From: a bacterium
Lineage (GTDB): Bacteria > DRYD01
NCBI GenBank assembly: GCA_039630415.1
Contig: JBCNVB010000013.1
Location: 34,079-98,078 of the forward strand
Reading direction: 5' to 3'
Length of the DNA stretch: 64,000 nt
The notes under the pieces are model-generated. The model was not told the DNA's origin, searched no databases, and worked only from the letters and a program-made list of their open reading frames with translations. A program made the translations under genes and the position numbers. Positions within the stretch are counted from its first letter, which is position 1. Each line of letters opens with the position of its first letter. Positions 4,693-58,500 of the stretch are shown piece after piece.

Positions 4693-4709
4693 TGTAAAAA
4701 AAATGTTAA
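4693..4709 (+). promoter_or_regulatory. Direct-repeat box TGTAAA-AAAAA-TGTTAA (11-bp period)
   Basis: Lies between divergent genes. Matches the WalR-type consensus TGTWAH-N5-TGTWAH and recurs at three other sites. Confidence 0.6.
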
Positions 4710-4810
4710 AAAAAGCATTCAGAAATTTTAATTTCGTTTCGGATGGAACATATACATCTGAAGAAAAGCAAAGTAAGTTATAATAGAATAGGCCGTAGGG
4801 GGTGGGTATA

Positions 4811-6055
4811 ATGTCTTTTGATGTTTTCAACTCCATGAACATTATAACAGGTGGAAGAACACAGAACATATATAGGATTAGTATAACGGCGGATATAAGT
4901 GTACCTATTCATCAGGGTTCTACAATATCCGATCATTACCAAGCGGGATTGCTCATAAGGCCTACTGCAGATTTTGATAGTCTAATATCGGCAGTAAGGG
5001 ATTTATCGTTTAACACTTCTTATAATCCAGGACCAATACCTGCAATACCTGAGCCTTCACATTCTACATATCAGGGTATAAATAGTCTGGAACAACTAAC
5101 AAATATGCTTAGAAATTTTGGTGAGAAGTTAAATCAGCTCACAAGTGTTTTTGATAGAACACAGGCAGATAAGATGAGAACGATAAACACCATAAGAAAC
5201 TTGGAGCAACAAAAAGCTAATATAGAAAATAGAATAAACCAACTGAATGCTAGGATACAACAGTTAAACAATCAAGCTAATCAATTAGATAATCAGGCAA
5301 AGCAATTAGATGCTAAAGCTAATAATTTAGAAAAGCAGGCTAATAATTTAGAAAAGAATGCTGCTAAAATAGAGCAGCAGGCAAGGGCTTTGATGTCAAA
5401 TCCCAAAACTGCTGCAAAAGGAGCTAGTTTGATGGCCAAAGCTCAGTCACTAAGAAAAACAGCTGCAACTCTAAAAGCTCAAGCTAAACAATTAAAGCAA
5501 CAAGCAAAACAACTAAGAAATCAAGCTCAGAGATTAAGAGGAGAAGCAAATAGACTACAACAGCAAGTAAATCAACTGCAACAAAGAAAACAAATGGTAG
5601 AGCTAAGATTGAATAACCAAAAGAAATTACTCCAAAAAATAGATAACCACCAACAAAGAATAACTGATTCAATGAGAAAAGTAGTAGAGCATGCAAGACT
5701 TATATATCAAAGAGCTATGGAATTGGTAGGTGCAAGAAATCAAGCCAATCCATTCCAACAACTGATAAACGATATACAATCGATGTTTAACAATAGAGCT
5801 TTAGGAAATGTACCAGGAATGGGCTTTATGCCAGGTATGGGAATGATGCCAGGTATGCCATTTAATCCTGCCCTTGCAATCGCTCAAGCAATCAATAATG
5901 TCTTTGCAATGGGATTCATAGCAGGAATGTCATTTGGTAAAAATAAAGCAATGAGAGATATGATGGGAATGATGGCAGGTATAGGACTTATGATGATGGG
6001 ACCTATGGCTGGTCCTATGCTAGGATTGGGCTTCCTAAGCAGAATGATTAGATAA
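4811..6055 (+). CDS. Long coiled-coil protein with a Gly/Met-rich hydrophobic C-terminus
   Basis: Q/N/K/A heptad repeats over about 200 aa; C-terminal GMMMAGIGLMMMGPMAGPMLGLGFL. SD GGGGGTGG lies before ATG 4811. Confidence 0.8.
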   Translation: MSFDVFNSMNIITGGRTQNIYRISITADISVPIHQGSTISDHYQAGLLIRPTADFDSLISAVRDLSFNTSYNPGPIPAIPEPSHSTYQGINSLEQLTNMLRNFGEKLNQLTSVFDRTQADKMRTINTIRNLEQQKANIENRINQLNARIQQLNNQANQLDNQAKQLDAKANNLEKQANNLEKNAAKIEQQARALMSNPKTAAKGASLMAKAQSLRKTAATLKAQAKQLKQQAKQLRNQAQRLRGEANRLQQQVNQLQQRKQMVELRLNNQKKLLQKIDNHQQRITDSMRKVVEHARLIYQRAMELVGARNQANPFQQLINDIQSMFNNRALGNVPGMGFMPGMGMMPGMPFNPALAIAQAINNVFAMGFIAGMSFGKNKAMRDMMGMMAGIGLMMMGPMAGPMLGLGFLSRMIR

Positions 6056-6078
6056 TACAAATACATAATACAAGTACT

Positions 6079-6672
6079 ATGGAATTGATATTTGTAGTTA
6101 GTTTTGCGGTAATACTTGCAGCTTTTACGGGAATAAGAGCATTCTTACCACTAACTATAGTATCCGTAATGGCTAAATTTAACTTAGTTACAATACCAGC
6201 CTCATCAAAATTCATAAACTTTTTAACTGACGAAAGAGTCATGGCTTTTCTAATAATCGCCACTATCATCGAAATACTATCAGATAAAATTCCATTAATA
6301 GACAATATCCTAGATAGTGTCTATGTAGTTCTAAAACCAGTCATATCGGTTATTAGTGCATATTCTATAACACTTTCTACTGTAGAACCATGGCAAGGTT
6401 TTATTATATCTTTAACACTTGCATTAATATCGAGCTCATCATCTAGTATATCTAAAGCAACGGTTAGGGCAGCATCTACTACATTCTCTGCAGGAACCCT
6501 TAATACTTTAATAAGTTTTATTGAAGATGTCACTGTATTCATAGGTATTATAATCTCCGTGATATTTACGATAATATTGCCTCTGATGGCACTTACGATA
6601 ATACTGCTAATTGCTCTTGGTTTATTCATGATTTTAAAGTTGAGGTATAATCCCAAGTGGAAAACGAGCTAA
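6079..6672 (+). CDS. DUF4126 family membrane protein
   Basis: GIRAFLP, EILSDKIP..DN.LD and S..ED motifs; multiple TM segments. Confidence 0.8.
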   Translation: MELIFVVSFAVILAAFTGIRAFLPLTIVSVMAKFNLVTIPASSKFINFLTDERVMAFLIIATIIEILSDKIPLIDNILDSVYVVLKPVISVISAYSITLSTVEPWQGFIISLTLALISSSSSSISKATVRAASTTFSAGTLNTLISFIEDVTVFIGIIISVIFTIILPLMALTIILLIALGLFMILKLRYNPKWKTS

Positions 6673-8576
6673 AATATTCAAAAGGTTCTTACCTACAATA
6701 CCACAAAGATAATCCAATCAACTGGATGGTATGGGGTAGTAAAGCTTTTAATTTAGCTCAAGAATTAGATAAACCGATATTTTTGTCAATAGGATATTTT
6801 ACCTGTCATTGGTGTCATGTAATGGCAAGAGAGGTTTTCGAGGATGAAGAGGTAGCAGAGTTGTTAAACAAGCAATTTGTATGTATAAAGGTAGATAGAG
6901 AGGAGCTTCCTGATGTTGACAGTTTTTATATACAGGCTCTGAGTATACTTCAGGGTGGTAATGCTGGTTGGCCAGCTAATTTATTTTTAACCCCAGACCT
7001 TAAACCATTTTTTGGATTTACTTATTTGCCTAAAAAAAATTTCATGACTATAGTTCAACAAATAGCTTATCTATGGAAACAAAGTAAACTGGAATTAATT
7101 CAATACGCGGAGCAGGTATATCAGTATCTTAAGGAAAACTATTTTAACAAAATTGGAACTTATCCTATCCATATTCTTTCAGTAAATAATCTTGAAAAGT
7201 TTTTGTATGAAGTTGATAAGCGTATTTATGAAGGGTTGGATGAATATGGTGGTTTTGGGATACAACCTAAATTTCCCCCTCATCAAATCCTTGAATATTT
7301 GCTTTATAGATTTGAAGATACTCCAAGCAAATTTGTTTTTGAATATATAGATAAAACATTGGTTGGGATGATGATGGGGGGTATGTATGATGTAATTGAT
7401 GGGGGATTTTGTAGGTATAGTACTGATCAAAAATGGATGGTACCACATTTTGAAAAAATGCTTTATGATAATGCTTTACTTATGTTTATATATCACAAAG
7501 CTTCACAAATATATCAAGATATAGATCGAAATAAAGCAGAAATATTTAAGTATGTGTCCCAAACTGTACTTGAATTTCTTAGTTCATTTTTATACGATTC
7601 TGGAGCTTATTTAAGTTCTTTGTCAGCTGAATCTCTGGATGATGGGGTCTATCAAGAAGGTGCATATTATCTTTTTAAACCAGGTGAAATACAGCAAATT
7701 AACAACCTAGATCTGTACTATTCAGTTTATGAGTTTTATAATCCTCATACAAAATATAGAGGTCTGATTTTGCATTACAAAGAGTTTCCAAAACATAAAT
7801 CTTTAAACGAAATTTTGGGCATAAGGAATCAGTTAAAGCAAATAAGGTCTACAAAATCTAAACCACCAGCGGATAACAAAATAATCTTCTCTTGGAACTC
7901 TATGCTTTGTTACTATTTGCTTAAATGCTATCAAATTTATGGTTATGATTCTTTCTTACAAAAAGCTTCAGAAATTTTAGATTTTTTAATTAGTAAAATG
8001 TTTTCCAAAGATCAGATTTATAGAATATGTGTTGATGGTTATATTTATGAGAAGGGAATGCTGGAGGATTACTTATGGTTTTCTTTAGCAACAAATCTCT
8101 ATTATCAAATAACAAAAAAAGAGGATTATTTGAATGTATCCAGGAAAATTTTTGATGAATTAAACACTAAGTTTTTTAGAGATGGTATTTTTTATAATTC
8201 TCAAGAATTTTTAACTTATGATGTATTTGATAGTTCTATACACTCTAACAATTCTCTAGCTTTAATTCTTGCTTTAGTCCTTGAGAATAATATACAGGAC
8301 AAGTACAAGGAAATCGCTTTAAAAATGTTTAATTTCACGGATAATGTAAATCATCTTGGAAGTTTTTTACTATTCCTTGATTTATATAAAAACAGTCAGA
8401 CCAAAGTTAAGAGTAGAACTAGTTTGGACGGTGATTTATATAAGATCTATTTTGACTCAGTATATGAAGTAAAGCCTTCAAGTATTGAAATTAAGAAAGA
8501 TGAAAAGAAGCAAGTTGTATTAAGCGTTTGTCAAGAAGATAAATGTTATGAAATTTACAAAACGATTGAATTTTGA
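6657..8576 (+). CDS. Thioredoxin-domain protein, YyaL/SSP411 (DUF255) family
   Basis: YLQYH.DNPINW, SIGY.TCHWCHVM, KVDREE.PDVD, PKFP, PHFEKMLYDNA. Confidence 0.9.
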   Translation: MENELKYSKGSYLQYHKDNPINWMVWGSKAFNLAQELDKPIFLSIGYFTCHWCHVMAREVFEDEEVAELLNKQFVCIKVDREELPDVDSFYIQALSILQGGNAGWPANLFLTPDLKPFFGFTYLPKKNFMTIVQQIAYLWKQSKLELIQYAEQVYQYLKENYFNKIGTYPIHILSVNNLEKFLYEVDKRIYEGLDEYGGFGIQPKFPPHQILEYLLYRFEDTPSKFVFEYIDKTLVGMMMGGMYDVIDGGFCRYSTDQKWMVPHFEKMLYDNALLMFIYHKASQIYQDIDRNKAEIFKYVSQTVLEFLSSFLYDSGAYLSSLSAESLDDGVYQEGAYYLFKPGEIQQINNLDLYYSVYEFYNPHTKYRGLILHYKEFPKHKSLNEILGIRNQLKQIRSTKSKPPADNKIIFSWNSMLCYYLLKCYQIYGYDSFLQKASEILDFLISKMFSKDQIYRICVDGYIYEKGMLEDYLWFSLATNLYYQITKKEDYLNVSRKIFDELNTKFFRDGIFYNSQEFLTYDVFDSSIHSNNSLALILALVLENNIQDKYKEIALKMFNFTDNVNHLGSFLLFLDLYKNSQTKVKSRTSLDGDLYKIYFDSVYEVKPSSIEIKKDEKKQVVLSVCQEDKCYEIYKTIEF

Positions 8577-13868: not shown

Positions 13869-14296
13869 TTGCTTGATTTTGAAAGTAGTTCTTTTTTATG
13901 TCTTAAAAGGAATTTAATTAATTCTTTGGTATACTTATTTAACTCGATTGAATTTATCTGATTTAATTTAAGTAGTTTATACTCGGATATTTCACTATTT
14001 AGTTTGATGTTTGATATGTTATCTACTTTGACTAGGTAATTAAAGAGGATCATGTGTATAGGTTTGTAGAATTCTGGGTCAAAGATGGATTCGAAGAAAG
14101 TCAGGTAGAAACAATTCTTGGGTTGTATATTCAAATTAGTTTCTTCTTTTATTTCTCTGATCAATGCTTTTATTAGAGTTTCACCTTGTTTTATTTTTCC
14201 GCCAGGTATTCCCCACTTACCATTCCACTTATTGGTTCTAACAAATAGGAAGTAATCATCGTATTTTATTAAACCACCTACTGTAACTACTATCAT
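13865..14296 (-). CDS. NUDIX hydrolase
   Basis: Nudix box [25 protein letters not shown]. Confidence 0.9.
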
Positions 14297-15258
14297 CTCA
14301 GATACATCGTATAGTAGAGCACTAATCCTACTATTATCGTAAGTTGTATTAAAACAAATATGGCTATTAGGATTAAGACTTTATTGGTTAGAATTGAATG
14401 TATAGGAAAGTGTTTTGTTGTTATTTGTTCATAATTAGTTTCGCTTTTTAGGATGCTGGCTAGTTTTTTTTCAAATTCTTTAAATGTTTTTATTCTTTCG
14501 TTAGGATTAGAATTTAAAGATTTTTCAAGTAGAGAACTTATTTGTGGGGGTATGGTGGGGTTTACTGAGGATGCTGGAGGGAAGAAGAAGGGATCTTCTC
14601 TAAGATAAGGACTAAGCTTTGTTAAGTATTCATATACTATTGAAGCTACTATGTATATGTATGAATACTCTCCTATGCTTGACTTATCGTCATCCAACAT
14701 TTCTGGAGGTATGTAACCTATTGTACCTACGTATTTTTCTTCTATTCCTTTCTCTGTTACCATCGCAGGTATTTTAGAAATGGCTAAGCTTTGAATCTTT
14801 ACTATTCCTTGTTTATCTATAACAATATTATCCGGCCTAAGGTCTACTAGATGAATTATGTTTCTTTCGTGTAAATTTCTAACTATTTCTAAAAGTTGTA
14901 AAGCTAGTTTTATCGCTTTTATATGATTAGTTTTTGATGAGTGTATTATATCGCTAAGAAGAGTACCGTTTATTTCTTCACATATAACCATTAGATATTG
15001 TTTTTCAATAAAATAGTCTACTATTTTCCCAATTTTTTCGTACACTATTTTAGATAGTGATGAGAGAAATTGATAGAGATTAGATAAGTAGTTTTGGGAT
15101 GTATTGTATTCGGATATACTTATTTGATAAAGAATCCAACTAGAGCCTATAAATCTTATGTCTTCTACTCTGTAAGCTATGTAGTCTACTTCTATTTTGT
15201 AGGTATTAGTTATTTTGTATCTATTGTTTAGGATAGTTCCGGCTAGGATTTTTTGCAT
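14293..15258 (-). CDS. Hanks-type Ser/Thr kinase-like protein with C-terminal TM; probable pseudokinase
   Basis: G..LNNRYKI, DLRPDNI and GTIGYIPPE are present. The Gly loop, the VAIK lysine and DFG are absent. Confidence 0.8.
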
Positions 15259-15950: not shown

Positions 15951-16403
15951 CTAACTAATTCTTCCAAATGAAGATTGTATATTGTTGTTATATTGACTAA
16001 TATAGTTTTGTTGTTGGTTAGATAGTATTTTGATGAAATCTAGAATAGTTATAGGACTATCTTTTTGATCACCTTCTTCACCTGTTACAAAGGTAGTTGC
16101 TCTATCTTTTATTATATCTGGTAATCTTGGTATTTCATCCATAACATCGGGTCTATCTCCCATTTCATGTGTTGCTAGTGTTTGTGCAATTACTTTATCT
16201 TGTTGTATATTTATGGATGTATCTCCTGCTTCTAGTGAGGCTAGTGTTTGTACTTTGGGACCATCATGATTTTGTACTATACCTTCTTCCGCGGTTCCAA
16301 CTGTAATCAGAGGATTTTTATCTCCGTATCTTTTTTGATGGCTCTCTATTACATCTTGTAATGTTGGTGGTTTAGATTGAATATTTGAATTTCTTATTTC
16401 CAC
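15951..16403 (-). CDS. Putative multicore graspetide (plesiocin-like, TTxxxxEE) precursor
   Basis: Four xTxxxxEx-G(D) cores. SD AGAGGGGGTG lies before the GTG start. Confidence 0.55.
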   Translation of the reverse strand: MEIRNSNIQSKPPTLQDVIESHQKRYGDKNPLITVGTAEEGIVQNHDGPKVQTLASLEAGDTSINIQQDKVIAQTLATHEMGDRPDVMDEIPRLPDIIKDRATTFVTGEEGDQKDSPITILDFIKILSNQQQNYISQYNNNIQSSFGRIS

Positions 16404-16472
16404 AGAGCTTCACCCCCTCTTTAAGTTATAATGTTCATTTTTGTATTTTAATTCAATATCTTAAGCCAATTT

Positions 16473-16489
16473 TTTACATTTTTTTTACA
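16473..16489 (-). promoter_or_regulatory. Direct-repeat box TGTAAA-AAAAA-TGTAAA upstream of the putative graspetide precursor
   Basis: Plus strand reads TTTACATTTTTTTTACA. It overlaps the holA stop codon. Confidence 0.55.
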
Positions 16490-17546
16490 CAGATAGAATG
16501 GAATAAACTTCTTGAGTGTAACTGCTTCTTCCCATTTTTATCCTTATTTCTGAATCCAAAAGCATGGCTACCAACTTACTTGTTGAATAATTTTTATGCT
16601 TTATTAAATAGTCTAACTTTCTGACGAATTTCATTAACATACTTACCCTGTAATGATTCATATTCAGCTTATTAGCTATATGCTTTATGTTTTCCCCAAC
16701 TTTGTTATATTCATCATGTATTTTTATGATTGAAACTATTTGGGAATATACTAAACCCCATAGCTTTTCAATTTCTCCATTCATCTCTATTTCATCGAGA
16801 TAGTTTTTTAAAAGTTTATACTCTTTTGATATTTTAGGAATATTCTCTATTTCATCTAACTTTGACTCGAATAAAATCTCTAGAAAAAGATTAACTACGT
16901 TAAACATGTTTATTTCGCTGTATTGAGATATATAAAAAGAAATTGCCTCCTGATCTAGTTCATGTTGAATCTTATCTATTCTACTCTCATAGTCTGATAT
17001 TATCTGATCTATTATTTTTTCTGTTAAGATTTCACTTTGTGTTTTGGATAAAACTATTCTAACAAGTTGCGGTATAATAGTTTCAAAAATCTCTGAATTA
17101 CTATCAAAATTGTACTTTTTTATTAAGCATGAAACAAGATGATCTATTTTATCCTCAGATAAATACTGAATTTTATCTATTATTTTGAAGTTTTTCTGTA
17201 TATATTCTGCAACTTTAGGATCTTTAATTGAATTTAAAGTCGGAATAGTAATTATTAAATTACAGCTCTTAGTCCTATCTAACATATCTATTACCTTTTT
17301 GGAATTATTTTTTTCAACCAAGGAGATAAAATTGTCCAATACAAATACCAGATTCTTATGAAACAGGGTTTGCTGACAAAGAATTTCTTCAAGCTGCTTT
17401 AAACTGTGGTTTTGACAATCAACTTTCTTTATAACATCTGCTTTGATAGAATTTACTGTTGAAAAACTCTCTTGTAAAAGTTTTTGTAAAAATTCTCGGT
17501 CTAACTCCGTGATCACAAAATCTCTAGTTAAAATAACATACCTCAT
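16485..17546 (-). CDS. holA: DNA polymerase III delta subunit-like protein, divergent
   Basis: Q.TLF...LVFV, IANKLNMNHYRV and L.D.EIRIKMG resemble the HolA pattern; size fits. Confidence 0.65.
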   Translation of the reverse strand: MRYVILTRDFVITELDREFLQKLLQESFSTVNSIKADVIKKVDCQNHSLKQLEEILCQQTLFHKNLVFVLDNFISLVEKNNSKKVIDMLDRTKSCNLIITIPTLNSIKDPKVAEYIQKNFKIIDKIQYLSEDKIDHLVSCLIKKYNFDSNSEIFETIIPQLVRIVLSKTQSEILTEKIIDQIISDYESRIDKIQHELDQEAISFYISQYSEINMFNVVNLFLEILFESKLDEIENIPKISKEYKLLKNYLDEIEMNGEIEKLWGLVYSQIVSIIKIHDEYNKVGENIKHIANKLNMNHYRVSMLMKFVRKLDYLIKHKNYSTSKLVAMLLDSEIRIKMGRSSYTQEVYSILSV

Positions 17547-21940: not shown

Positions 21941-23077
21941 CTACTCGGTAAATAGTATCTTCCTTCTTCTGGTTAAAGGAGGTAAATCTTCTATATCAAT
22001 ACTGAAAGTAGGTTTTGTATCTGAAAATCCAAATAATGAATCTTTTTTACTGTCTACTTTAGTTGGAGTCTCTGGAAATTCAGTAGCTATCAAAATTACC
22101 TTTACTTCATCTTTTAGATTTTCATCTAAAGTAGCTCCAAAAATTATTCTAGCTTCTGGATCAACTGCTTGATGAATTATGTTAGAAGCCTTTTGTATCT
22201 CGGTTAGTGTTAAATCACTTCCTCCAATAACGTTAAAAAGTACTCTTTTGGCTCCTTCTACCTTCATTTCAAGTAAGGGACTTTCTACTGCTTTTAATGC
22301 TGCTTCTTCAGCTCTATTTACTCCTTTAGATGTACCAATACCCATCCAGCAACTACCAGAATCCTTTAATATCGACTGAATATCTGCAAAATCTATATTG
22401 ATTAACCCTGGCTTTAAAATTATTTCAGTAATTCCTACTACTCCATGCTTTATTACAGTATCTGCTAGTTTGAAAGAATCTATTAAGGTAGTATTTTCTT
22501 CAGCTATGGAGAATAACTTATCATTAGGGATAATTACCATCGCATCTAAGTTTGGTTTGAGATTATTAATACCTTCTTCCGCTATTATTTTTCGTATTTT
22601 ACCTTCAAAAGAGAAGGGTTTGGTTATGATAGCTACTGTAAGTATTCCCATTTCTTTAGATACTGCTGCGATTATGGGACTTGCACCGGTACCCGTTCCT
22701 CCTCCCATACCGGCAGTTATAAATACCATATCCGCACCACTTATCACTTTTCTTATTTCTTCTATACTTTCTTCTGCAGCTTTTCTACCTAGTTCAGTAT
22801 CTGAACCTGCTCCTAGACCCTTCGTAGTATTTTTACCTATGTGTAGTTTATATATATTTTCGGGTAAATTTAGAAGAGCTTGAGCATCTGTATTTATAGC
22901 AATAAAATCGACACCCTTTATATTGTCTTGTACCAATCTACTTACAGCGTTACATCCTCCCCCTCCTACTCCTATTACCTTTATATTTGTAAATCTTATA
23001 TCTTCGGGGTTTATTTTCTTTCTTTCAATTTTTTCCCCTTTTTCGAAGGATTTATTCTCTATTCTTTCTTTATCCAT
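21941..23077 (-). CDS. ftsZ: Cell division protein FtsZ
   Basis: GVGGGGCNAV, NTD, GMGGGTGTG, PFSFEG, NIDFAD. Confidence 0.98.
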   Translation of the reverse strand: MDKERIENKSFEKGEKIERKKINPEDIRFTNIKVIGVGGGGCNAVSRLVQDNIKGVDFIAINTDAQALLNLPENIYKLHIGKNTTKGLGAGSDTELGRKAAEESIEEIRKVISGADMVFITAGMGGGTGTGASPIIAAVSKEMGILTVAIITKPFSFEGKIRKIIAEEGINNLKPNLDAMVIIPNDKLFSIAEENTTLIDSFKLADTVIKHGVVGITEIILKPGLINIDFADIQSILKDSGSCWMGIGTSKGVNRAEEAALKAVESPLLEMKVEGAKRVLFNVIGGSDLTLTEIQKASNIIHQAVDPEARIIFGATLDENLKDEVKVILIATEFPETPTKVDSKKDSLFGFSDTKPTFSIDIEDLPPLTRRRKILFTE

Positions 23078-47603: not shown

Positions 47604-48581
47604 TCACTCCTTGTTTTTCAGGCTTTCTTTTACAAATATCAGATCTTCTATTAGTTTGGATACACTTTTATATCTTCTTTCTGGTTTTTTTTCGATGCAT
47701 TTCATAATGATCTTTTCAAGTTGGGTTGGTATTTGAGGATTTATAAGGGTTGGTAGGGTTGGTGTTTCTTTCATATGTTTTATTATTACTTCACTGGCAT
47801 TTCCTTCGAAAGGGAGTTTGCCTGTAAATATTTCATACATTGTTATTCCTAGGGAGTATATATCTATTTTGGGGTCAGTATAAACTCCTTCAAACAATTC
47901 GGGAGCCATATAGGAGGGTGTTCCTAGTATTTGTCCAGCATATGTTATTGGTTTCCAATAAACTATCCTCGATATTCCTAGGTCTGTTAATTTGGAGTTT
48001 TTTATGTTAGTATGTACTAGTATGTTTTCAGGTTTTATATCTCTGTGTATTATGCCTTTATTGTGGAGGTAATTTAATGCGTTGGAGATAGCTAAGATTA
48101 CGTCTATTTTTTGGATAAGAGTTAGGTCATGGTATACTTCGTCTAGAGTTTTACCTTCGACATACTCGAGTATGAGATAAGGTTTGCCTTCATGTTCTCC
48201 GTAGTCAAATATTTGAACTATGTTTACATGTTTTATTTGTTTTAGGATTTCAACTTCTCTTTTGAATCTTTCGAGTAGTTCTGGATCTTCGGATTGGAAT
48301 AATTTAGCTGCATAGAGTTTATTGTCTTTTTCTACGAGATATACCTTGCTTGTAGCTCCTTGTCCTAATACTTTTATTACTTTATATTGCCCTATATATT
48401 TTCCTGATCCTGTGGGTTTTGTAGAGGGGGTACTAGAAAATGTTGAGGTATTTTTTGACTGTTTTATTGAGGATTGTAATTCTTGTTTTTGTTTACTTGT
48501 TTTTAGCTTAGTAATCAATAAATAGAGTATTACTAAGATGGCTACTATTGAGATTGTTGTTAGCAGTATTGTATTATCCAT
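47604..48581 (-). CDS. Hanks-type Ser/Thr protein kinase with N-terminal TM anchor
   Basis: LGQGATSKVY, AAK, HRDIKPEN, DLG, GTPSYMAPE, DIYSLG. Confidence 0.93.
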   Translation of the reverse strand: MDNTILLTTISIVAILVILYLLITKLKTSKQKQELQSSIKQSKNTSTFSSTPSTKPTGSGKYIGQYKVIKVLGQGATSKVYLVEKDNKLYAAKLFQSEDPELLERFKREVEILKQIKHVNIVQIFDYGEHEGKPYLILEYVEGKTLDEVYHDLTLIQKIDVILAISNALNYLHNKGIIHRDIKPENILVHTNIKNSKLTDLGISRIVYWKPITYAGQILGTPSYMAPELFEGVYTDPKIDIYSLGITMYEIFTGKLPFEGNASEVIIKHMKETPTLPTLINPQIPTQLEKIIMKCIEKKPERRYKSVSKLIEDLIFVKESLKNKE

Positions 48582-49320
48582 TAGTGTTTGTAGTTTTTTG
48601 TATTTTTTGTTTGATGCTATTCAAGATGGAATATAGGTATTTGCGTGATATATTCAGTTTTTGTGCTATCATTGTTTTAGTAATATCCTCGAAGAACAGG
48701 AATTTTATTACTTTTTTTTCGATTTCAGAAAATTTGGACATGATTTGTTCAAGGAATATTTTGTCTTCTATGGGTAGATCTAGGTCTTTATGTTTTTTTG
48801 ATCTTATTACTGAAACATCTATATTTTCTTTTTGTGGCAGTGAGAGGATTTCTTTTACAGCTGTTTCTGTTATGTTAAATTTTTCTGATATTTCGCTGAT
48901 TGTTGCATTGGGTTTTAAAGATATGTACTTTTGTATTTGGTAGTACAATTTTCTTATTGTTTTTGGAATTTTTATGATGTCTTGTCTCATTACATAGTTT
49001 TTTATTTCTTTTTCTATGTAGCAGAGGATGAATGGAGTGGGATCTTCATAAGTTTCCTGGTAATTTTGAAGTGCCTTTATAATTGCTAGTATTGCTATTT
49101 GTTTTATGTCTTCTTTGTCGAAGGTATGATATTTATAAGCCAGTTTATTTATGTAATTTTCGAATAGAGGTATTATTTGTTGGCAGAGTATCTTGTCTCT
49201 GTTTTCTTTTTCTTCCTGTTTGTATTTTTTGACTATTTCTTTTAGGGTTCGTGGAGGTGATTCTTGTTCTATGAAAATGTCGTATAGGACTAAGGTTGCT
49301 TTTTTAGATTTATTTACCAT
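48574..49320 (-). CDS. Alternative sigma-70 factor, SigB/SigF/SigG-like
   Basis: EDIKQ...A..KA, I.KEIK.Y.RQ..IKIP, region 3 TI.EI.E, region 4 E..VI...FF.D.T...IA.KL.ISR. Confidence 0.8.
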   Translation of the reverse strand: MVNKSKKATLVLYDIFIEQESPPRTLKEIVKKYKQEEKENRDKILCQQIIPLFENYINKLAYKYHTFDKEDIKQIAILAIIKALQNYQETYEDPTPFILCYIEKEIKNYVMRQDIIKIPKTIRKLYYQIQKYISLKPNATISEISEKFNITETAVKEILSLPQKENIDVSVIRSKKHKDLDLPIEDKIFLEQIMSKFSEIEKKVIKFLFFEDITKTMIAQKLNISRKYLYSILNSIKQKIQKTTNTNG

Positions 49321-53913: not shown

Positions 53914-54111
53914 TTAATTAACAGGATAAAATCCATCTGTAGTTGTAGTAGTTGTATCTGTTGTGGTAGTTGTACCTGTTGTAGTTGTTTGTTCTGTTGT
54001 TTGAAGTATATTGCAGTATGTAGGTAAAAATTCTATTCTTTCTCCTTTTCTACAGGAAATCATTATCGAAATAACAGAGCTAGCGACGAGTAATGGCAAT
54101 ACATATCTCAT
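53914..54111 (-). CDS. Short Thr-rich lipoprotein-like paralog of the downstream gene, possibly decaying
   Basis: MRYVL...MISC versus MRYIL...MVSC; LPTY versus IPTF. SD GAGGAG. Confidence 0.5.
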   Translation of the reverse strand: MRYVLPLLVASSVISIMISCRKGERIEFLPTYCNILQTTEQTTTTGTTTTTDTTTTTTDGFYPVN

Positions 54112-54122
54112 TTACTATCTCC

Positions 54123-54178
54123 TCTGTCTATATTATTTATTTCTGTCTATTTATTTATTTCTGTCTATTTTATTTCGA
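54123..54178 (+). repeat. Three copies of an 18-19 bp tandem repeat (TCTGTCTAT..TTATTT)
   Basis: Units start at 54123, 54142 and 54160; the last overlaps the stop codon of the 54165-54791 ORF. Confidence 0.8.
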
Positions 54179-54791
54179 CACATTCTGAGTTGTAATTTAG
54201 AAAGTTATTTATGGGGATTGCGCCTACTATGAAATTGGCATTATCGTATGGTTTGGGATCGTTGAATGAATCTGTGATGATTTCTCCTTTATGTGTTAAA
54301 ATTTGTACATACAATGGCATTCTTTCTATCCAGCCTAGCTCTTTTAGTTTTTGGGTATCTATCTTTAGCGTTATTTCGGAATCTTGGGGGTTGATTTCTG
54401 TTAATTGAATTATTTGTTTATCTTTTAGATGAGGTGTGTTTTCTGCTACCTGTTCTTTCGTTTGATCATATTTTATTGAGAGAGCTATTTCCCACCAATG
54501 GTCTGTAGCTCCTCTAATGTTGAATGGAAGAATGTATGTTCCATAATCCCTAAGGAAATCTAGGAGTACTACTACTGAGCTATCAGATAAGAAGGATTGT
54601 TTATCATATTTTTGGGTTTTTATTTTGATATATATATTTTTATGTTCATCGTATTTAGCTGAGTATTTGATGAGGTCTCTTATTTCATCGTATCCATCTC
54701 CTATTCTATAGTTACCTGTCTTATCTATTACTACTGTTCTAAAGTTATCTTTTTCTATTTGATTTGGACATCCTTGGACTATCCTAATCAT
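54165..54791 (-). CDS. Hypothetical protein
   Basis: 208-aa ORF with no signal peptide; contains IGDGYD..RDL and a beta-rich body. Confidence 0.65.
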   Translation of the reverse strand: MIRIVQGCPNQIEKDNFRTVVIDKTGNYRIGDGYDEIRDLIKYSAKYDEHKNIYIKIKTQKYDKQSFLSDSSVVVLLDFLRDYGTYILPFNIRGATDHWWEIALSIKYDQTKEQVAENTPHLKDKQIIQLTEINPQDSEITLKIDTQKLKELGWIERMPLYVQILTHKGEIITDSFNDPKPYDNANFIVGAIPINNFLNYNSECVEIK

Positions 54792-54834
54792 GTTTCACTT
54801 ATTTTTTGATTATTTTTTTGTTTATCACCTTAGT

Positions 54835-54851
54835 TGTAAAAAAATTGTTAA
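54835..54851 (+). promoter_or_regulatory. Direct-repeat box TGTAAA-AAAAT-TGTTAA
   Basis: Intergenic, 43 nt from the ATG of 54165-54791. Same geometry as the box at 4693 relative to ATG 4649. Confidence 0.55.
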
Positions 54852-54863
54852 TTTTAGTAAAAA

Positions 54864-55859
54864 TTAAATTGTTATCTGTTGGTTTTTAGTTTCAAGGGTT
54901 AGGTATTTGCTCGATATTATGATAATGTTTTGTGAAAGTTCATTGAGTTTATTTTTAAGGTTTTGTGGTAGATGTTTTATGAAATCTAGTTTTGCAAGGA
55001 AAACAAGCGAAGATTTTAGATCGTTTATTTTTACTGCTTGATCGGTATTAGTTATTGTTAATAGATTTATTTCTATATTTTGTGATAGTAAGTATTTGAG
55101 GAATGAGTTGATTTTTTCCACGAACTCTTCGTCTTCTTGTTCATCTACTGATATATTGTTTATTAGGAAGAAGAATTTAGGTGATATGAATTCAGCTTTT
55201 TCTTTTACCACTGGTTTTCCTACTTTTGCCCATTGTTTCCAAAGTATTTTTTTGATATCATCAGTAGATACATATTCTCTTACTGCAAAGAAATCTCCTT
55301 CTTGGCTTATTTTATACATCAAACTTATGTTCTGTTCAGGAGCGGTGTTTATAAGTTTATGGTAATTTATTTGTGAGAAGTTTGGGTAGATATAGAGGTT
55401 TGCTTTTATTTTTATTATTTTTGGTGATATAAGCTTGAAAAATAGATAACATTGCACTGCTATTTCGATATTTTCACTAAATCCTCTTTTGATTCCAATT
55501 AGATCTATTGATACTTCTTTACTTTTTTTGGGTTTGATGTAAAATAGATTCACCTTGTTTTGTTGTTGAATTAAGTTATTAACTACTTCAATGTTTGCAA
55601 ACAGGATGGGAAAGATTGATTGATTAGATATATTAATTTTGAGATTTATCTTTTGTCCTTTGTAGATTTGTTTTGGTGTGAGTTGGTATTTATCTATTGA
55701 TATTTTATTAGTTGTTGCTAGGGGGTAAATTAATGATATTAATAAGATACAGAACATTATGATGGAAAGTAGTAAAGTTAGAGGAGAACCAATATTTATA
55801 GATATTAGTAAACACAATGAACTTAGAAAGGCAGATATTATGTACTCTCTATGTCCCAT
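54864..55859 (-). CDS. DUF58 domain protein
   Basis: Two TM segments, KRG, IYP, GDFFAVREYV..DD.K.I.WK..AK, VKE. Confidence 0.85.
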   Translation of the reverse strand: MGHREYIISAFLSSLCLLISINIGSPLTLLLSIIMFCILLISLIYPLATTNKISIDKYQLTPKQIYKGQKINLKINISNQSIFPILFANIEVVNNLIQQQNKVNLFYIKPKKSKEVSIDLIGIKRGFSENIEIAVQCYLFFKLISPKIIKIKANLYIYPNFSQINYHKLINTAPEQNISLMYKISQEGDFFAVREYVSTDDIKKILWKQWAKVGKPVVKEKAEFISPKFFFLINNISVDEQEDEEFVEKINSFLKYLLSQNIEINLLTITNTDQAVKINDLKSSLVFLAKLDFIKHLPQNLKNKLNELSQNIIIISSKYLTLETKNQQITI

Positions 55860-55861
55860 TA

Positions 55862-56146
55862 TTATTTTTTGGCTGTGGTTTTTGTTTTTAGTGGAATTGA
55901 AGCTACTAGGGATACTCTCTTGTTATCCGCTTTGATTACGAAGTCCATTTCTTCTGTTTCTACATCATCTTTGTATTTCGATAGTAATTCTATGAGTTCT
56001 TCTTTTAATTTTTCTATTGTAGTATTTTTTTCTTGTGATCTGTCATGTACTATTACTAGTTGTAATCTTTCTTTGGCTATTTTGGATGATTTTTTTTGTT
56101 TTTTGAAGATATTAATAATTTCTTCTAACCATAGTGGAAGAGACAT
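55862..56146 (-). CDS. minE: Cell division topological specificity factor
   Basis: S..IAKERLQLVIVHDR, L.EELI..LSKY, IP. Confidence 0.93.
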   Translation of the reverse strand: MSLPLWLEEIINIFKKQKKSSKIAKERLQLVIVHDRSQEKNTTIEKLKEELIELLSKYKDDVETEEMDFVIKADNKRVSLVASIPLKTKTTAKK

Positions 56147-56161
56147 TATATTCCCTCCTGG

Positions 56162-56977
56162 TTATTTATTTTTTTTGAATCCTACCAGACTTACGAATTT
56201 TTCTAGTAAGTTGCTTTGGTTAAATGGGTTTTCTATGGGTATGTTGGGTTCTATTATTCTCTGAGCTATATTGTGGAAATATTTGTATAGTGGTTTAGTT
56301 TTGTTGAGAGCTAGTGGTTCACCGTTGTTTGTAGAGATGGTTATGTATTCATCATCAGGTATAATTCCTAGAAGTTCTATATTTAGTGTTTCTAGGATGT
56401 CTTCTATTGAAAGCATTTGTAGTTTTTTAACCATATGTTTTTTGACTCTGTTTATTATGAGTTTAGTTGATTTTTTTTGCATTGATTCGAGGTTAGCAAT
56501 GACTCTATCTGCGTCTCTTATGGATGATAGGTCGGGTGTGGTAACAACGATGGCTTCTTCTGCTGCTAAAGCAGACATTTTAAAGCCGTGTTCTATTCCT
56601 GCTGGGCAATCTATTAAGACGAAATCAAATTCTTCTTTTATTTCATCGATTAATGCTTTAAATTTTTCTATTGGTACGTCTTCTTTTTGTTTTGTTTGTG
56701 GTGCTGGTAATAAGAATAGATTTGGTATTCTTTTATCTTTGATTAGTGCTTGTTTATAGCTTCTACATCTATTTTCGATGACATCTAGGAGATCAAAAAC
56801 TATTCTGTTTTCAAGTCCTAGTATAAGATCTAGGTTTCTTAGTCCTACATCTGCATCTACAAGTACTACTTGATAGTTCATTGTACCGAGAATAGCTCCT
56901 ATGTTTGCGGTAACTGTAGTTTTTCCAACTCCGCCTTTACCTGAGGTAACTACTATTGTTCTTTTCAGCTTTTCCAC
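56162..56977 (-). CDS. minD: Septum site-determining ATPase
   Basis: SGKGGVGKTT, D.DVGLRNLD, DCPAGIE.GF, RDADR; amphipathic C-terminal helix. Confidence 0.97.
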   Translation of the reverse strand: MEKLKRTIVVTSGKGGVGKTTVTANIGAILGTMNYQVVLVDADVGLRNLDLILGLENRIVFDLLDVIENRCRSYKQALIKDKRIPNLFLLPAPQTKQKEDVPIEKFKALIDEIKEEFDFVLIDCPAGIEHGFKMSALAAEEAIVVTTPDLSSIRDADRVIANLESMQKKSTKLIINRVKKHMVKKLQMLSIEDILETLNIELLGIIPDDEYITISTNNGEPLALNKTKPLYKYFHNIAQRIIEPNIPIENPFNQSNLLEKFVSLVGFKKNK

Positions 56978-56984
56978 GTTTTAT

Positions 56985-57776
56985 TCACTCCTTTTGATCT
57001 TTTATTATTTCCATTCTTATGGAGTTATTTTCGGGATAGAATAGGATGTTTGAAATTTCTGTTGTTTTTATTCGTTTTTTTATTTCTGATTCATCGAATT
57101 CTGCTATCATGTTAGCTATTTTTATTAATGGGTTTTTGAGTTTGAGTGTAAATATGAAGCAGGAGGGGTTGTTGGGGTATCCTGCGTGAGCTGTACCCAT
57201 TAGTTTCCCTAGTATTATTATGTTTTTGGAGCTTCTGATTTCTGCTCCTGGATTCACATTTCCTATTAGAAGGATACTTTTTTGACTTTCTAATACAGAT
57301 CCGCCTCTTACGTTTTTTCTAAAGATAACTATGTCATTATCTTTACTATCTTGATTATTATTTTTTTCTGTTAGATTAGTGAATGTTGGGTATGTAGTTT
57401 GTGGTTTGTTTTGTGGTTGGGTGCAGGTAGGGTTGGGAGGTATTTGAGTGCGTGGAGTAAGTTTATTTTGCGTATTTATAATTGATGGAGCGTCTATCGG
57501 GATTGAATATGATAAAGCCAACATTTTTGTTATGGGGTTTGTATTCCTTATCATGTCTATTGGTATGTCATATGAATTAAACATTTGAATCAGATTTTTA
57601 AAATCTGTTTCATTTAATCCTATATCTCCCAGATCTAGTATGACTAGATTGTTTTCTACTATGTCTTTGAGTCCCTTATCTACGTATTCTTGAAGTTTTT
57701 GTTTTAATCTGCTTATTTCTTCTAGTTGTTCTATTTTTATGATTATTTTTCCTTTTTCGTGCTTTAGTTGAAGCAT
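56985..57776 (-). CDS. minC: Septum site-determining protein MinC
   Basis: VRGG, GNVNPGAEI, G.L.G.AHAG; lies upstream of minD. Confidence 0.9.
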   Translation of the reverse strand: MLQLKHEKGKIIIKIEQLEEISRLKQKLQEYVDKGLKDIVENNLVILDLGDIGLNETDFKNLIQMFNSYDIPIDMIRNTNPITKMLALSYSIPIDAPSIINTQNKLTPRTQIPPNPTCTQPQNKPQTTYPTFTNLTEKNNNQDSKDNDIVIFRKNVRGGSVLESQKSILLIGNVNPGAEIRSSKNIIILGKLMGTAHAGYPNNPSCFIFTLKLKNPLIKIANMIAEFDESEIKKRIKTTEISNILFYPENNSIRMEIIKDQKE

Positions 57777-57781
57777 GTTAT

Positions 57782-58411
57782 TTAATTTGAGTAAATTACT
57801 GTTGTAAGTGGTTTAGGTAGGAAGCTTTTAAGGGTAATTATTTTACCTGGCCATTTTTTATTGATTTCTTCTAGTATTTCAATTAGTTTGATTGCTCTTT
57901 TTTTACAATCAATTTCTTCGAGGAATGTTTGCTTAACTTTGGGATTCAGTTTCATGATAGAAACTATGGTATCTGTAAAAGAGCATAAATTTTTTTCTTT
58001 AATTGATTTTTTGATAAGTTCATTCTTTAGTTGAGGAATATAGTTATTTGCTAGGTTTATAATTTTTTCAACAAGTTCTCTGTATTCTCCGTGAATTTTT
58101 TCTTCTATGATTTGGTAGTTTTTAGTATATGGATATATATCTTCAAATTCTATTTCGATTATTTTAACTCTTTTGGAGGCTTTTAGCTGTACTATAAAAA
58201 CGTTGAATGATATTCTTTGAATATTTACTATTTCGCATAAACAGCCGTATTCGCTTATTGTGAAGCTTTTTTCGTCCTTAATCATCGATGTTATGAATTT
58301 CATATTGGTTTTTATGTTTTCAAGAAGTTTGTCATCATTAATTATTACTCCTATTATGTTTCCTGGTATTATAACTAGATTTGACAATGGGAATATGTAA
58401 ATCTTATTCAT
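57782..58411 (-). CDS. Stand-alone Lon substrate-binding (N-terminal) domain protein
   Basis: FPL.N.V..PG, G.LCEI, R..I, KQ.FLE..D...R. Confidence 0.8.
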   Translation of the reverse strand: MNKIYIFPLSNLVIIPGNIIGVIINDDKLLENIKTNMKFITSMIKDEKSFTISEYGCLCEIVNIQRISFNVFIVQLKASKRVKIIEIEFEDIYPYTKNYQIIEEKIHGEYRELVEKIINLANNYIPQLKNELIKKSIKEKNLCSFTDTIVSIMKLNPKVKQTFLEEIDCKKRAIKLIEILEEINKKWPGKIITLKSFLPKPLTTVIYSN

Positions 58412-58483
58412 TTTCCTTTAGAATAATTTTCAATTTTTATACTTTGTTTCCTTTCAGGTAGGTTTTATATTACTGGGGAGATA

Positions 58484-58500
58484 TGTTAAAAAAATGTAAA
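58484..58500 (+). promoter_or_regulatory. Direct-repeat box TGTTAA-AAAAA-TGTAAA
   Basis: Intergenic, upstream of the glycine-zipper gene. Confidence 0.6.

What the first reader, a model, noticed from the sequence alone, without database searches (positions are those of the whole stretch)
4693..58500. Candidate regulon: a recurring 11-bp-period direct-repeat box in front of dispersed, signal-peptide-less, effector-like genes
Seen: TGTWAA-AAAAW-TGTWAA occurs at 4693-4709(+), 16473-16489(-), 54835-54851(+) and 58484-58500(+). All four lie in the few non-coding gaps; the second partly overlaps the holA stop. In three cases the box points into a gene and is followed 16-17 nt later by TTTAAT/TTGAAT/TTTAAT, then 13-14 nt later by GAACATATA/GAACATTATA/AGTATATA. 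Those genes are the coiled-coil protein (4811), the graspetide-like precursor (16403) and the glycine-zipper protein (58580). In two cases the box lies on the opposite strand exactly 43 nt from an ATG (S8 protease 4649, orphan 54791); the protease start is my choice. I did not see the box in the other intergenic gaps I read. Known: TGTWAH-N5-TGTWAH is the WalR/YycF consensus, and 11-bp direct repeats typify OmpR/PhoB regulators. Inference: one response regulator co-controls lineage-specific, probably exported proteins (protease, possible protease-inhibitor RiPP, membrane-active proteins), i.e. an undescribed antagonism, predation or secretion regulon.
Basis: partly seen in the sequence, partly recalled or inferred. 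Interest (0 to 1): 0.85.

Follow-up and report, generated by a model that had tools for sequence, protein, structure and literature searches.

The report
Conserved regulator box before orphan genes
A 17-base DNA box sits in front of several dozen genes of an uncultivated small-genome bacterium and is kept there in related species, so it looks like the docking site of one master regulator that controls proteases, many proteins of unknown kind, secretion-machine genes and perhaps the replication origin.

Summary
The box TGTAAAAAAAATGTWAA occurs 4 times in the window. In the 1.4-Mb genome it occurs 11 times exactly and 17 times with one mismatch, always in gene gaps. A background trained on intergenic DNA expects about 0.1. 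Exact copies occur in 10 of 10 genomes of the family and in 0 of 31 other genomes. Upstream of orthologs it is kept, with the same orientation, in 21 of 22 testable cases.

It works in two orientations. Pointing at a gene, it lies 36-40 nt before a TATATA-type -10 element, in promoters that lack the lineage's usual AGGAGG -35. That is activator geometry, centred near -60. Pointing away, it lies 43-100 nt from start codons, with no core promoter at a fixed distance.

Flanking genes are mostly family-less proteins without signal peptides, plus S8 and C11 proteases. Weaker boxes precede fliF, flhB and flgB. Half-sites crowd beside the DnaA-box cluster.

Best reading: the operator of a tandem-binding regulator, probably the one canonical OmpR-family response regulator. 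Binding is not shown. The RiPP idea is unsupported.

The parts
4693..4709 (+). Box 1, TGTAAAAAAAATGTTAA. It is forward to the coiled-coil gene (4811) and reverse to the S8 protease gene.
   Evidence: The box is kept upstream of 9 of 9 orthologs of the coiled-coil gene, always in forward orientation, 69-82 nt from the approximate start (5 exact, 3 one-mismatch, 1 two-mismatch).
4727..4754 (+). Inferred core promoter of the coiled-coil gene: -35-like TTTAAT (4727-4732) and GAACATATA holding the -10 CATATA (4749-4754). This puts box 1 at about -68 to -52.
   Evidence: Read. The family-wide peak of YATATAWA lies 34-42 nt after forward boxes. The transcription start is inferred, not mapped.
4811..6055 (+). 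Coiled-coil protein, 414 aa from the ATG at 4811. No signal peptide.
   Evidence: Only sub-threshold coiled-coil Pfam and NCBIfam hits. N-terminus.
3501..4649 (-). Subtilase (Peptidase_S8) gene. Box 1 lies in reverse orientation 43 nt from the ATG at 4649. There is no Shine-Dalgarno sequence, and the start is uncertain.
   Evidence: Pfam S8, E = 2.4e-48. Orthologs in L207 and L178 have the box at 47 nt.
16473..16489 (-). Box 2, TGTAAAAAAAATGTAAA, forward to the 150-aa gene (GTG at 16403). It overlaps the stop of ORF 16485-17546 by 5 nt.
   Evidence: The target gene has no ortholog in 9 relatives, so conservation cannot be tested for this site.
16427..16456 (-). Inferred core promoter of the 150-aa gene: TTGAAT (16456-16451) and GAACATTATA (16436-16427).
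   Evidence: Read. There are 39 nt between the box and CATTAT.
15951..16403 (-).
   Evidence: No Pfam family. Found in 0 of 9 relatives. Downstream genes: a 167-aa protein without family, a Ser/Thr kinase and a NUDIX protein.
54835..54851 (+). Box 3, TGTAAAAAAATTGTTAA, reverse to the 208-aa orphan gene, 43 nt from its ATG at 54791.
   Evidence: A reverse-oriented box stands upstream of 5 of 6 testable orthologs as an exact copy; the sixth has a 3-mismatch variant.
54165..54791 (-). 208-aa orphan protein.
   Evidence: No Pfam or NCBIfam family. The AlphaFold model is too poor to use (mean pLDDT 44).
58484..58500 (+). Box 4, TGTTAAAAAAATGTAAA. It is forward to the glycine-zipper-like gene (58580) and reverse to the LON-N-domain gene (57782-58411).
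   Evidence: A forward box stands upstream of 7 of 7 testable orthologs (5 exact, 2 one-mismatch).
58517..58543 (+). Inferred core promoter: TTTAAT (58517-58522) and AGTATATA (58536-58543).
   Evidence: Read. There are 37 nt between the box and TATATA.
58580..59242 (+). 220-aa protein with an Asn-rich N-terminus and a sub-threshold glycine-zipper hit.
57782..58411 (-). LON substrate-binding-domain protein, the divergent neighbour of box 4 at 72 nt. It may be a bystander.
   Evidence: Pfam hit, E = 6.7e-20.

Best explanation
The box is the operator of one sequence-specific DNA-binding regulator that binds as a head-to-tail pair. It consists of two TGTWAA half-sites 11 bp apart, each followed by an A-run.

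The most likely binder is a winged-helix response regulator of the OmpR/PhoB family. The candidate is the only canonical one in the genome, G000:C8:30108-30797, which has a histidine kinase next to it.

At 'forward' sites the box sits at about -68 to -52. That is a fixed 36-40 nt before a TATATA-type -10 element, often preceded by TG. These promoters lack the lineage's usual AGGAGG -35 element, so the bound regulator would recruit RNA polymerase (inferred class-I-type activation).

At 'reverse' sites the same box lies 43-100 nt from start codons, without a core promoter at a fixed distance. The sign of regulation there is unknown.

The regulon has about 30-45 sites per genome. It comprises subtilases, clostripain-like proteases and many lineage-specific proteins without signal peptides. 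Weaker sites stand before fliF, flhB and flgB-fliE-flgC, and half-sites pile up beside the DnaA-box cluster.

Shown: the motif, its enrichment, its conservation, its geometry and its gene content. Inferred: that a protein binds it, which protein, and the direction of control. My separate odds: that it is a conserved operator of some DNA-binding regulator, about 0.85; that the regulator is of the OmpR/PhoB family, about 0.55; that it is the C8 protein, about 0.4.
For: Enrichment:
- About 200-fold or more over Markov models trained on intergenic DNA. The mismatch spectrum is 11/17/16/102 for 0/1/2/3 mismatches.

Lineage signal:
- Exact boxes occur in 10 of 10 family genomes, 7-34 each, and in 0 of 31 other genomes.

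Unbiased ortholog test:
- A box with at most 2 mismatches, in the same orientation, stands upstream of 21 of 22 testable orthologs of three window genes. The 22nd has a 3-mismatch variant.
- Between orthologs from box-selected loci, the sequence from box to start codon diverges freely.

Both orientations are used, and each gene family keeps its own. Of 140 sites in six genomes, 30 are forward-only, 45 reverse-only, 61 lie in divergent gaps and 4 face no gene start. A core-promoter element could not be inverted in this way.

Forward geometry:
- YATATAWA peaks sharply at +34 to +42 after the box. 45 of 91 forward sites have a match of at least 7 of 8 in +32..+45, with the mode at +36-39.
- tRNA promoters instead read AGGAGG-N~16-(TG)TAGAAT.

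Candidate protein:
- The genome has only 4 receiver domains and 2 with a winged helix.
- The C8 regulator is closest to the YycF, MtrA, RpaB and PhoB models and to solved RegX3 and MtrA.
- It is 82-94% identical in 9 of 9 family genomes, with an invariant recognition helix.

From papers:
- RpaB sites (TTACA repeats) activate from about -51 and repress near the start site (abstract and passages of PMC6525291).

Origin:
- The densest half-site window of the genome (11 in 500 nt; the next best has 5) abuts the DnaA-box cluster, which holds 15 of the genome's 56 boxes in 600 nt and lies within about 10-15 kb of the GC-skew minimum on contig C18.
- A second genus shows the same arrangement.
- MtrA, CtrA, Spo0A and HP1021 are response regulators that bind origins (passages of PMC4285127).
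Against: - No binding, expression or start-site data exist. No RNA run could be listed.
- No box scoring at least 14 bits stands before either regulator gene, so there is no sign of autoregulation.
- The sister-family genome G010 has a C8 ortholog (67% identical) with the same recognition helix. Yet it has 0 exact boxes and only 6 loose matches, against 1 for the control pattern. Its loci are richer in G+C (0.41-0.46) and it is 73% complete. So either the regulon expanded in this family or another protein reads the box.
- The invariant AAAAA spacer is unusual for WalR-type sites, whose spacer is described as non-conserved.
- Reverse sites show no -10 element at a fixed distance, so the mechanism there is open.
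- The second, atypical regulator (C6) is present in 8 of 9 relatives and cannot be excluded.
Confidence: 0.6

Rival explanations
1. The box is a true operator, but a different protein reads it. This could be the atypical response regulator on C6 (8442-9125, beside a 1193-aa GAF/PAS kinase), or a non-response-regulator transcription factor, or a nucleoid-associated protein.
For: - G010 keeps the C8 regulator's recognition helix but has almost no boxes.
- The C6 regulator was found in 8 of 9 family genomes and not in G010, which tracks the expansion of the box.
- HP1021, an atypical orphan regulator, binds TGTT[TA]C[TA] at an origin (passage of PMC4285127).
- The invariant A-run spacer and the arrays next to the origin would suit an architectural protein.
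Against: - The C6 regulator was not found in G009 (87% complete), which has 15 exact boxes.
- It is only 45-66% identical across genomes, while the box is identical in both genera.
- Its winged helix is below the Pfam cut-off (23.1 against 26.2 bits).
- I could not list the other transcription factors of the genome.
Confidence: 0.2
2. The box is a promoter-intrinsic upstream element, either an UP element or phased A-tract curvature. It would be read by the RNA polymerase alpha subunit, not by a regulator.
For: - Two A-runs stand 11 bp apart and lie at about -68 to -47 in forward promoters.
- That phased A-tracts upstream of the -35 element are known in low-G+C bacteria is my recollection, not from a call.
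Against: - The TGT triplets are as invariant as the A-runs.
- The element is kept in the inverted orientation in whole gene families.
- It is missing from 41 of 42 tRNA promoters, which should be the strongest ones.
- It piles up beside the DnaA boxes, where no gene starts.
Confidence: 0.1
3. In reverse orientation TTTACA is the -35 element of an alternative sigma factor. The genome has SigH-like, SigB/F-like (two) and FliA-like sigma factors, so the 'regulon' would be a sigma regulon.
For: - TTTACA resembles a -35 hexamer.
- Four small sigma factors are encoded, one of them in the window at 48574-49320.
- Reverse boxes lie only 43-82 nt from start codons.
Against: - No -10-like element stands at a fixed distance after reverse boxes, under several definitions.
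- In forward sites the box is 16-17 nt upstream of the -35-like hexamer, too far to be a core element.
- A sigma element cannot work inverted.
Confidence: 0.05
4. The box is the remnant of a dispersed repeat or mobile element and has no regulatory role.
For: There are many nearly identical copies. 11 of the 28 sites with at most one mismatch lie on one contig, C5.
Against: - Only the 17-mer and a few A's are shared; the flanks are unrelated.
- Copies stand at the same place and in the same orientation before orthologs in two genera.
- None lies well inside a gene.
Confidence: 0.02

Closest known systems
WalR/VicR (YycF) operators of Bacillota
   Same: The box fits TGTWAH-N5-TGTWAH exactly: two hexamers in direct repeat with an 11-bp period. 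Sites are used on either strand (passages of PMC4168254). S. aureus WalR also has several sites upstream of dnaA (passages of PMC10746227). The candidate regulator's best NCBIfam model is YycF.
   Different: The regulator is below the YycF equivalog cut-off (272.6 against 340 bits). No autolysin-type targets were seen. The spacer is an invariant A-run here but non-conserved in WalR sites. Both the lineage and its housekeeping promoter are unlike Bacillota.
RpaB and its HLR1 motif in cyanobacteria
   Same: Direct repeats hold TTACA, the reverse complement of TGTAA. It is a large regulon of more than 150 promoters. Position decides the outcome: activation from about -51, repression near the start site (PMC6525291, abstract and passages). 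An RpaB-controlled CRISPR leader is reported (title and abstract start in the listing), and variant boxes stand in a CRISPR-adjacent leader of relative G004.
   Different: HLR1 repeats are 8 nt plus 2, a 10-bp period; here the period is 11 bp. The forward boxes centre near -60, not -51. The RpaB model scores below its cut-off (258.3 against 330 bits).
CtrA (Alphaproteobacteria), MtrA (Actinobacteria) and other master response regulators that also bind the origin
   Same: These are OmpR-type regulators with 11-bp-phased half-sites (CtrA TTAA-N7-TTAA; MtrA direct repeats of GTCACAgcg). They control about 100 genes, including flagellar class II genes and pilin, and they bind inside or beside oriC (passages of PMC11264516, and PMC4285127). 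Here, weaker boxes precede fliF, flhB and flgB, and half-sites crowd next to the DnaA boxes. Solved MtrA is the second-best structural relative of the candidate regulator.
   Different: Most CtrA-activated promoters carry the site at -35; here forward sites are near -60. The MtrA model is below its cut-off (265.3 against 300 bits). No phosphorelay was looked for. Origin binding is inferred from sequence only.

Membership tests
WalR/YycF regulon | Operator TGTWAH-N5-TGTWAH in direct repeat | tested here: met
   All 4 window boxes and the 11 exact genome copies fit. The consensus is taken from passages of PMC4168254.
WalR/YycF regulon | Regulator is a YycF equivalog (NCBIfam NF040534 over its cut-off) | tested here: not met
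   272.6 bits against a cut-off of 340. The MtrA, RpaB and PhoB models score almost the same, and all are below their cut-offs.
WalR/YycF regulon | Targets are cell-wall hydrolases or autolysins | tested here: not met
   Among 40 box-flanking proteins the Pfam families are S8 (3), C11 (2), HEAT, EF-hand, FliF and housekeeping neighbours. No autolysin family was seen.
OmpR/PhoB-family response-regulator operator | Tandem half-sites with a 10-11-bp period | tested here: met
   The TGTWAA units start 11 bp apart, and runs with an 11-bp period occur beside the DnaA boxes of G008.
OmpR/PhoB-family response-regulator operator | A family member with receiver domain, winged helix and partner kinase is encoded and conserved | tested here: met
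   Trans_reg_C scores 110.6 bits. A kinase gene is adjacent. Orthologs occur in 9 of 9 family genomes at 82-94% identity.
OmpR/PhoB-family response-regulator operator | The protein binds the box | not testable with these tools
   Needs EMSA, footprinting or DAP-seq.
CtrA-type master regulator | TTAA-N7-TTAA site | tested here: inconclusive
   Only copies with T at both W positions contain TTAA-N7-TTAA. The dominant first half-site is TGTAAA.
CtrA-type master regulator | Sites at the replication origin and before flagellar class II genes | tested here: inconclusive
   Half-sites are dense beside the DnaA-box cluster in 2 of 2 genomes examined. Boxes with 1-2 mismatches precede fliF, flhB and flgB. 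Binding is not shown.
RpaB/HLR1 | Two 8-nt (G/T)TTACA(T/A)(T/A) repeats separated by 2 nt | tested here: not met
   The period here is 11 bp, not 10. The motif is taken from PMC6525291.
UP element | Present at the strongest housekeeping promoters and acts without a factor | tested here: not met
   1 of 42 tRNA genes has a box within 200 nt. Factor independence is not testable here.

The most novel reading that the evidence does not exclude
The box is the operator of a CtrA/MtrA-like master regulator in an uncultivated, deep-branching, small-genome lineage. This regulator would tie control of the replication origin to expression of a flagellin-less, flagellum-derived type III export machine and of its cargo. 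The cargo would be subtilases, clostripains and dozens of orphan proteins whose Asn/Ser/Thr-rich, disordered N-termini serve as the export signal. On this reading it is a secretion or 'attack' regulon of a possibly host- or prey-dependent bacterium.
Probability: 0.2. Interest if true: 0.85.

Novelty: new member of a known kind. Interest (0 to 1): 0.58.

Why it matters
Regulons are almost never known for uncultivated lineages. Here a single, nearly invariant 17-mer marks about 30-45 promoters per genome in a family whose public records are titled only 'bacterium'.

This gives a ready list of co-regulated genes, most of them of unknown kind. It also narrows the candidate regulators to two response regulators that can be made and tested in vitro without culturing the organism.

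Several other features give a concrete handle on how this lineage lives, and on how global regulators couple replication to behaviour outside the model phyla:
- weaker boxes before the flagellar-type export genes;
- half-site arrays beside the origin;
- no recognisable flagellin in 10 of 10 family genomes;
- a housekeeping promoter unlike the textbook one.

Tried and rejected
It returned mainly single matches in many unrelated taxa. It was useful only to show that one copy per genome occurs by chance, and to pick up a few relatives.
- RNA evidence: no RNA holder was listed, so no start sites or expression data.
- Core promoter at reverse sites: no positional peak was found for TAGAAT, TA[GAT][AT]AT, AGGAGG plus TAGAAT, TAnnnT or TG-extended -10 patterns. 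There is only a weak excess of -10-like hexamers at +31 to +43 (my tally from the table).
- Sporulation-type sigma consensus sequences (SigE, K, F, G; recalled from memory) did not fit the forward -10 element by eye. I rejected this without a formal test.
- Spo0A as the binder: no Spo0A_C domain at E <= 0.1 in the genome, which is 89% complete.
- Autoregulation: no box of at least 14 bits lies near either regulator gene.
- Mobile-element reading: the flanks are not shared.
- Function of targets: NCBIfam gave nothing but coiled-coil noise for 10 orphans.
  - The model of the 346-aa coiled-coil family (pLDDT 72, first 50 residues disordered) had no PDB match at E <= 0.001. A flagellin-like or translocator-like fold is therefore neither shown nor excluded.
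  - The model of the 208-aa orphan was too poor to search with (pLDDT 44).
- Graspetide idea: there is no ATP-grasp gene beside 15951-16403, and the gene has no orthologs.
- Circularity: the ortholog comparison on box-selected loci is circular for conservation of the box itself. I therefore repeated the test from the protein side.
- Not used: the search for homologous proteins, the search of protein representatives, the protein-atlas search, complex prediction, read laying. Supplements of papers were not opened.

Full report
**What is there**

The window is G000:C5:34079-98078 of a 1.40-Mb assembly with 31 contigs and about 32% G+C, 89% complete. In the whole genome the pattern occurs 13 times.

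Against the sharper consensus TGTAAAAAAAATGTWAA there are 11 exact copies, 17 with one mismatch, 16 with two and 102 with three. That spectrum is the reverse of what chance gives. All 28 copies with at most one mismatch lie in gene gaps or overlap the ends of crudely called ORFs (three by 4-5 nt; two overlap only the longest-start extension of an ORF).

I took 104,451 nt of intergenic DNA (7.4% of the genome) and simulated sequence from Markov models of order 1, 3 and 5 trained on that same DNA. The observed counts were 9 and 23, and no simulation exceeded 2. A weight-matrix scan gives 45 hits of at least 14 bits in the genome, most of them in gene gaps (4 flagged inside crude ORF calls).

**Conservation**

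The exact 17-mer is present in all 10 genomes of the family (two genera, 7-34 copies each). It is present in none of 31 other genomes searched: one of the sister family and 30 from elsewhere in the domain. The few loci related to this genome carry record titles that say only 'bacterium'.

I fetched 112 box loci from five relatives. 108 of the 112 boxes were not inside a crudely called ORF, and 109 faced at least one gene start. Many G000 box genes have orthologs beside these boxes, with the same orientation and similar distance, while the sequence between box and start codon has diverged.

Those loci were selected by the box, so I repeated the test from the protein side:
- The coiled-coil gene at 4811 has orthologs in 9 of 9 relatives, and all 9 carry a forward box 69-82 nt upstream (5 exact, 3 one-mismatch, 1 two-mismatch).
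- The orphan at 54791 has 7 orthologs, 6 of them testable. Five have an exact reverse box and one a 3-mismatch variant.
- The gene at 58580 has 8 orthologs, 7 of them testable. All 7 have a forward box (5 exact, 2 one-mismatch).
- The 150-aa gene at 16403 has no ortholog in the 9 relatives.

In sum, 21 of 22 testable orthologs have a box with at most two mismatches. The genome-wide rate is about 44 such sites for about 1,300 genes.

**Two orientations**

Over 140 sites (28 in G000 and 112 in relatives), 30 point only at a gene start ('forward'). 45 point only away from the gene whose start they face ('reverse'). 61 lie in divergent gaps and 4 face no start.

After forward boxes there is a sharp peak of YATATAWA at +34 to +42 and a T-rich, TTTAAT-like stretch at about +17. 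45 of 91 forward-facing sites have a match of at least 7 of 8 in +32..+45, with the mode at +36-39. The aligned consensus reads ...gatTATATATAtaa. With the -10 element at -12 to -7, the box spans about -68 to -52.

After reverse boxes I found no element at a fixed distance under any definition I tried. There is only a weak excess of -10-like hexamers at +31 to +43 (my tally from the table). The Shine-Dalgarno sequence lies 40-65 nt after reverse boxes and 50-75 nt after forward boxes, so the overall geometry is similar.

Several reverse sites at 43-47 nt have no Shine-Dalgarno sequence, including both window cases. They would fit leaderless or near-leaderless mRNAs with the box centred near -52. 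That is inference.

**The housekeeping promoter is different**

Upstream of about 25-30 of the 42 tRNA genes the pattern is AGGAGG-like, then about 16 nt, then TAGAAT, often preceded by TG. The primary sigma factor, identified by its place after dnaG, is very divergent: its only Pfam hit is region 2 at 22 bits. Forward box promoters keep a -10 element but lack the AGGAGG -35. That is what activator-dependent promoters look like. Only 1 of 42 tRNA genes has a box within 200 nt.

**Genes**

Of 40 proteins flanking the 28 G000 sites, 16 have a Pfam family over its curated cut-off:
- three subtilases and two clostripain-family proteases;
- HEAT, EF-hand, TPR and FliF;
- neighbours in divergent gaps (ValRS, lysine aminomutase, NuoL-like, ATP synthase epsilon, LON-N, an exo/endonuclease-phosphatase protein) and an AlaRS gene 758 nt from its box.

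The other 24 have none. In a systematic sample of 20 other window genes, 17 have a family. Fisher's test gives p = 0.001. Ten orphans also drew a blank in NCBIfam.

Housekeeping partners at 55-58 nt on the forward side lack the forward promoter, by my reading. They are probably bystanders, which is inference.

Most products lack a hydrophobic N-terminus. Residues 2-26 are richer in Asn, Ser and Thr than in other proteins (0.26 against 0.17, p = 9e-8). The excess is specific to the N-terminus: N-terminus minus body is +0.067 against -0.007, p = 2e-4. The first 50 residues of the modelled coiled-coil family are disordered.

Weaker boxes stand before three flagellar-type operons:
- fliF, with 1 mismatch;
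- flhB-flhA, with 2 mismatches;
- the flgB-like gene, fliE and flgC, with 2 mismatches.

No Flagellin_N domain was found in any of the 10 family genomes, which are 71-90% complete.

**Origin**

G000:C18:85.59-86.2 kb holds 15 of the genome's 56 DnaA-box-like motifs (mostly TTTTCCACA) within 600 nt. It lies 10-15 kb from the minimum of cumulative GC skew on that contig. Directly beside it is the densest window of box half-sites in the genome: 11 in 500 nt, where the next best window has 5. In G008, of the other genus, a cluster of TTATCCACA boxes is likewise preceded by repeated modules that contain 11-bp-period TTGTTAAAAAT runs.

**Who binds**

The genome has four receiver domains. Two are CheY-like. 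One is a canonical OmpR-family regulator (C8:30108-30797) followed by a kinase. One is an atypical regulator with a sub-threshold winged helix (C6:8442-9125), two genes downstream of a 1193-aa GAF/PAS kinase. No Spo0A_C domain was found.

The C8 protein scores about equally on the YycF, MtrA, RpaB and PhoB models, all below their cut-offs. It is closest to solved RegX3 and MtrA. It is 82-94% identical in 9 of 9 family genomes. Its recognition helix is invariant, and this holds also in the sister-family genome G010 (67% identity), which has no exact box and only 6 loose matches.

The C6 protein is found in 8 of 9 relatives. It was not found in G009, which has 15 boxes, nor in G010, and it is only 45-66% identical.

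I therefore favour C8. This rests on family knowledge (direct repeats with an 11-bp period, and the WalR/MtrA/RpaB/PhoP type of half-site), not on any binding data.

**Comparison with known systems**

- The box satisfies the WalR consensus, and VicR uses sites on both strands (passages of PMC4168254). The defining regulator and target features of the WalR regulon are not met.
- RpaB offers the best functional parallel for position-dependent outcome (PMC6525291).
- CtrA, MtrA, Spo0A and HP1021 are the parallel for master regulators that also occupy the origin (PMC11264516; PMC4285127; PMC10746227).
- The four 17-mers occur in none of the papers of the searched library.

**Verdict**

This is a real, strongly conserved operator that defines a regulon of mostly lineage-specific genes. 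The kind of system, a response-regulator or transcription-factor regulon with a direct-repeat site, is known. This member, its invariant A-run spacer, its use in both orientations and its gene content are new. The secretion or 'attack' reading and the origin link are open, testable hypotheses.

Noticed in passing
G000 tRNA upstream regions, e.g. C10:101577 and C23:109066; L258:1930-2997: The housekeeping promoter of this lineage appears to be AGGAGG-like, then about 16 nt, then (TG)TAGAAT, seen before about 25-30 of 42 tRNA genes. The primary sigma factor, the 355-aa gene right after dnaG, is so divergent that Pfam sees only a 22-bit region-2 hit. The -35 element resembles a Shine-Dalgarno sequence.
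   Followed up: partly
All 10 genomes of the family (G000-G009): No Flagellin_N domain was found in any of the 10 genomes (71-90% complete). Yet G000 has FliF, FlhB, FlhA, FliE and rod proteins. This suggests a flagellum-derived export apparatus without a recognisable filament protein.
   Followed up: partly
G000:C18:85590-86440 (L017:3380-4260): An oriC-like cluster holds 15 DnaA-box variants, mostly TTTTCCACA rather than TTATCCACA. It lies between an AlaRS gene and another minus-strand gene, not next to dnaA. It is followed by an AT-rich stretch packed with box half-sites in both orientations.
   Followed up: partly
L282 (G008:C26:50000-52500): Beside a TTATCCACA cluster there are repeated modules of about 108 nt. 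Each holds TTGTTAAAAAT runs and the palindrome-like TTGACTTTTGTCAA. The latter may be a second regulator's site.
   Followed up: no
L278-L281 (starts of G004 contigs C3, C9, C10, C17): Two of these contigs (C3, C9; C10 was not scanned and C17 gave no match) begin with a CRISPR repeat (Rfam CRISPR-DR2). All four carry the two variant boxes in reverse orientation about 130 nt apart; in C3 they lie in a leader-like stretch after the repeat (TTAACAAATTTTTAACA and TTTACAATTTTTTTACA). This recalls the reported RpaB control of a CRISPR leader.
   Followed up: no
window 48574-49320 (-): A 248-aa sigma-70-family protein with weak SigB/F/G-type matches lies inside the window. The genome has four small alternative sigma factors (SigH-like, two SigB/F-like, FliA-like).
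   Followed up: partly
G000:C5:114383, 116694, 118981 (L005): Three consecutive same-strand genes each have their own reverse box 56-59 nt upstream. Two are paralogous HEAT-repeat proteins and one is a 190-aa orphan. 11 of the 28 sites with at most one mismatch lie on contig C5.
   Followed up: no
G000:C3:70000 and C8:2871 (L001): A divergent pair occurs twice in the genome, each time with a box-like site in the gap. The pair is a lysine-5,6-aminomutase-alpha-like gene and a 523-541-aa protein with a hydrophobic N-terminus.
   Followed up: no
window 14293-15258 (-) and 21941-23077 (-): A eukaryote-type Ser/Thr protein kinase lies two genes downstream of the box-2 target. FtsZ and a class-A beta-lactamase-fold protein are also in the window. 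None has a box.
   Followed up: no
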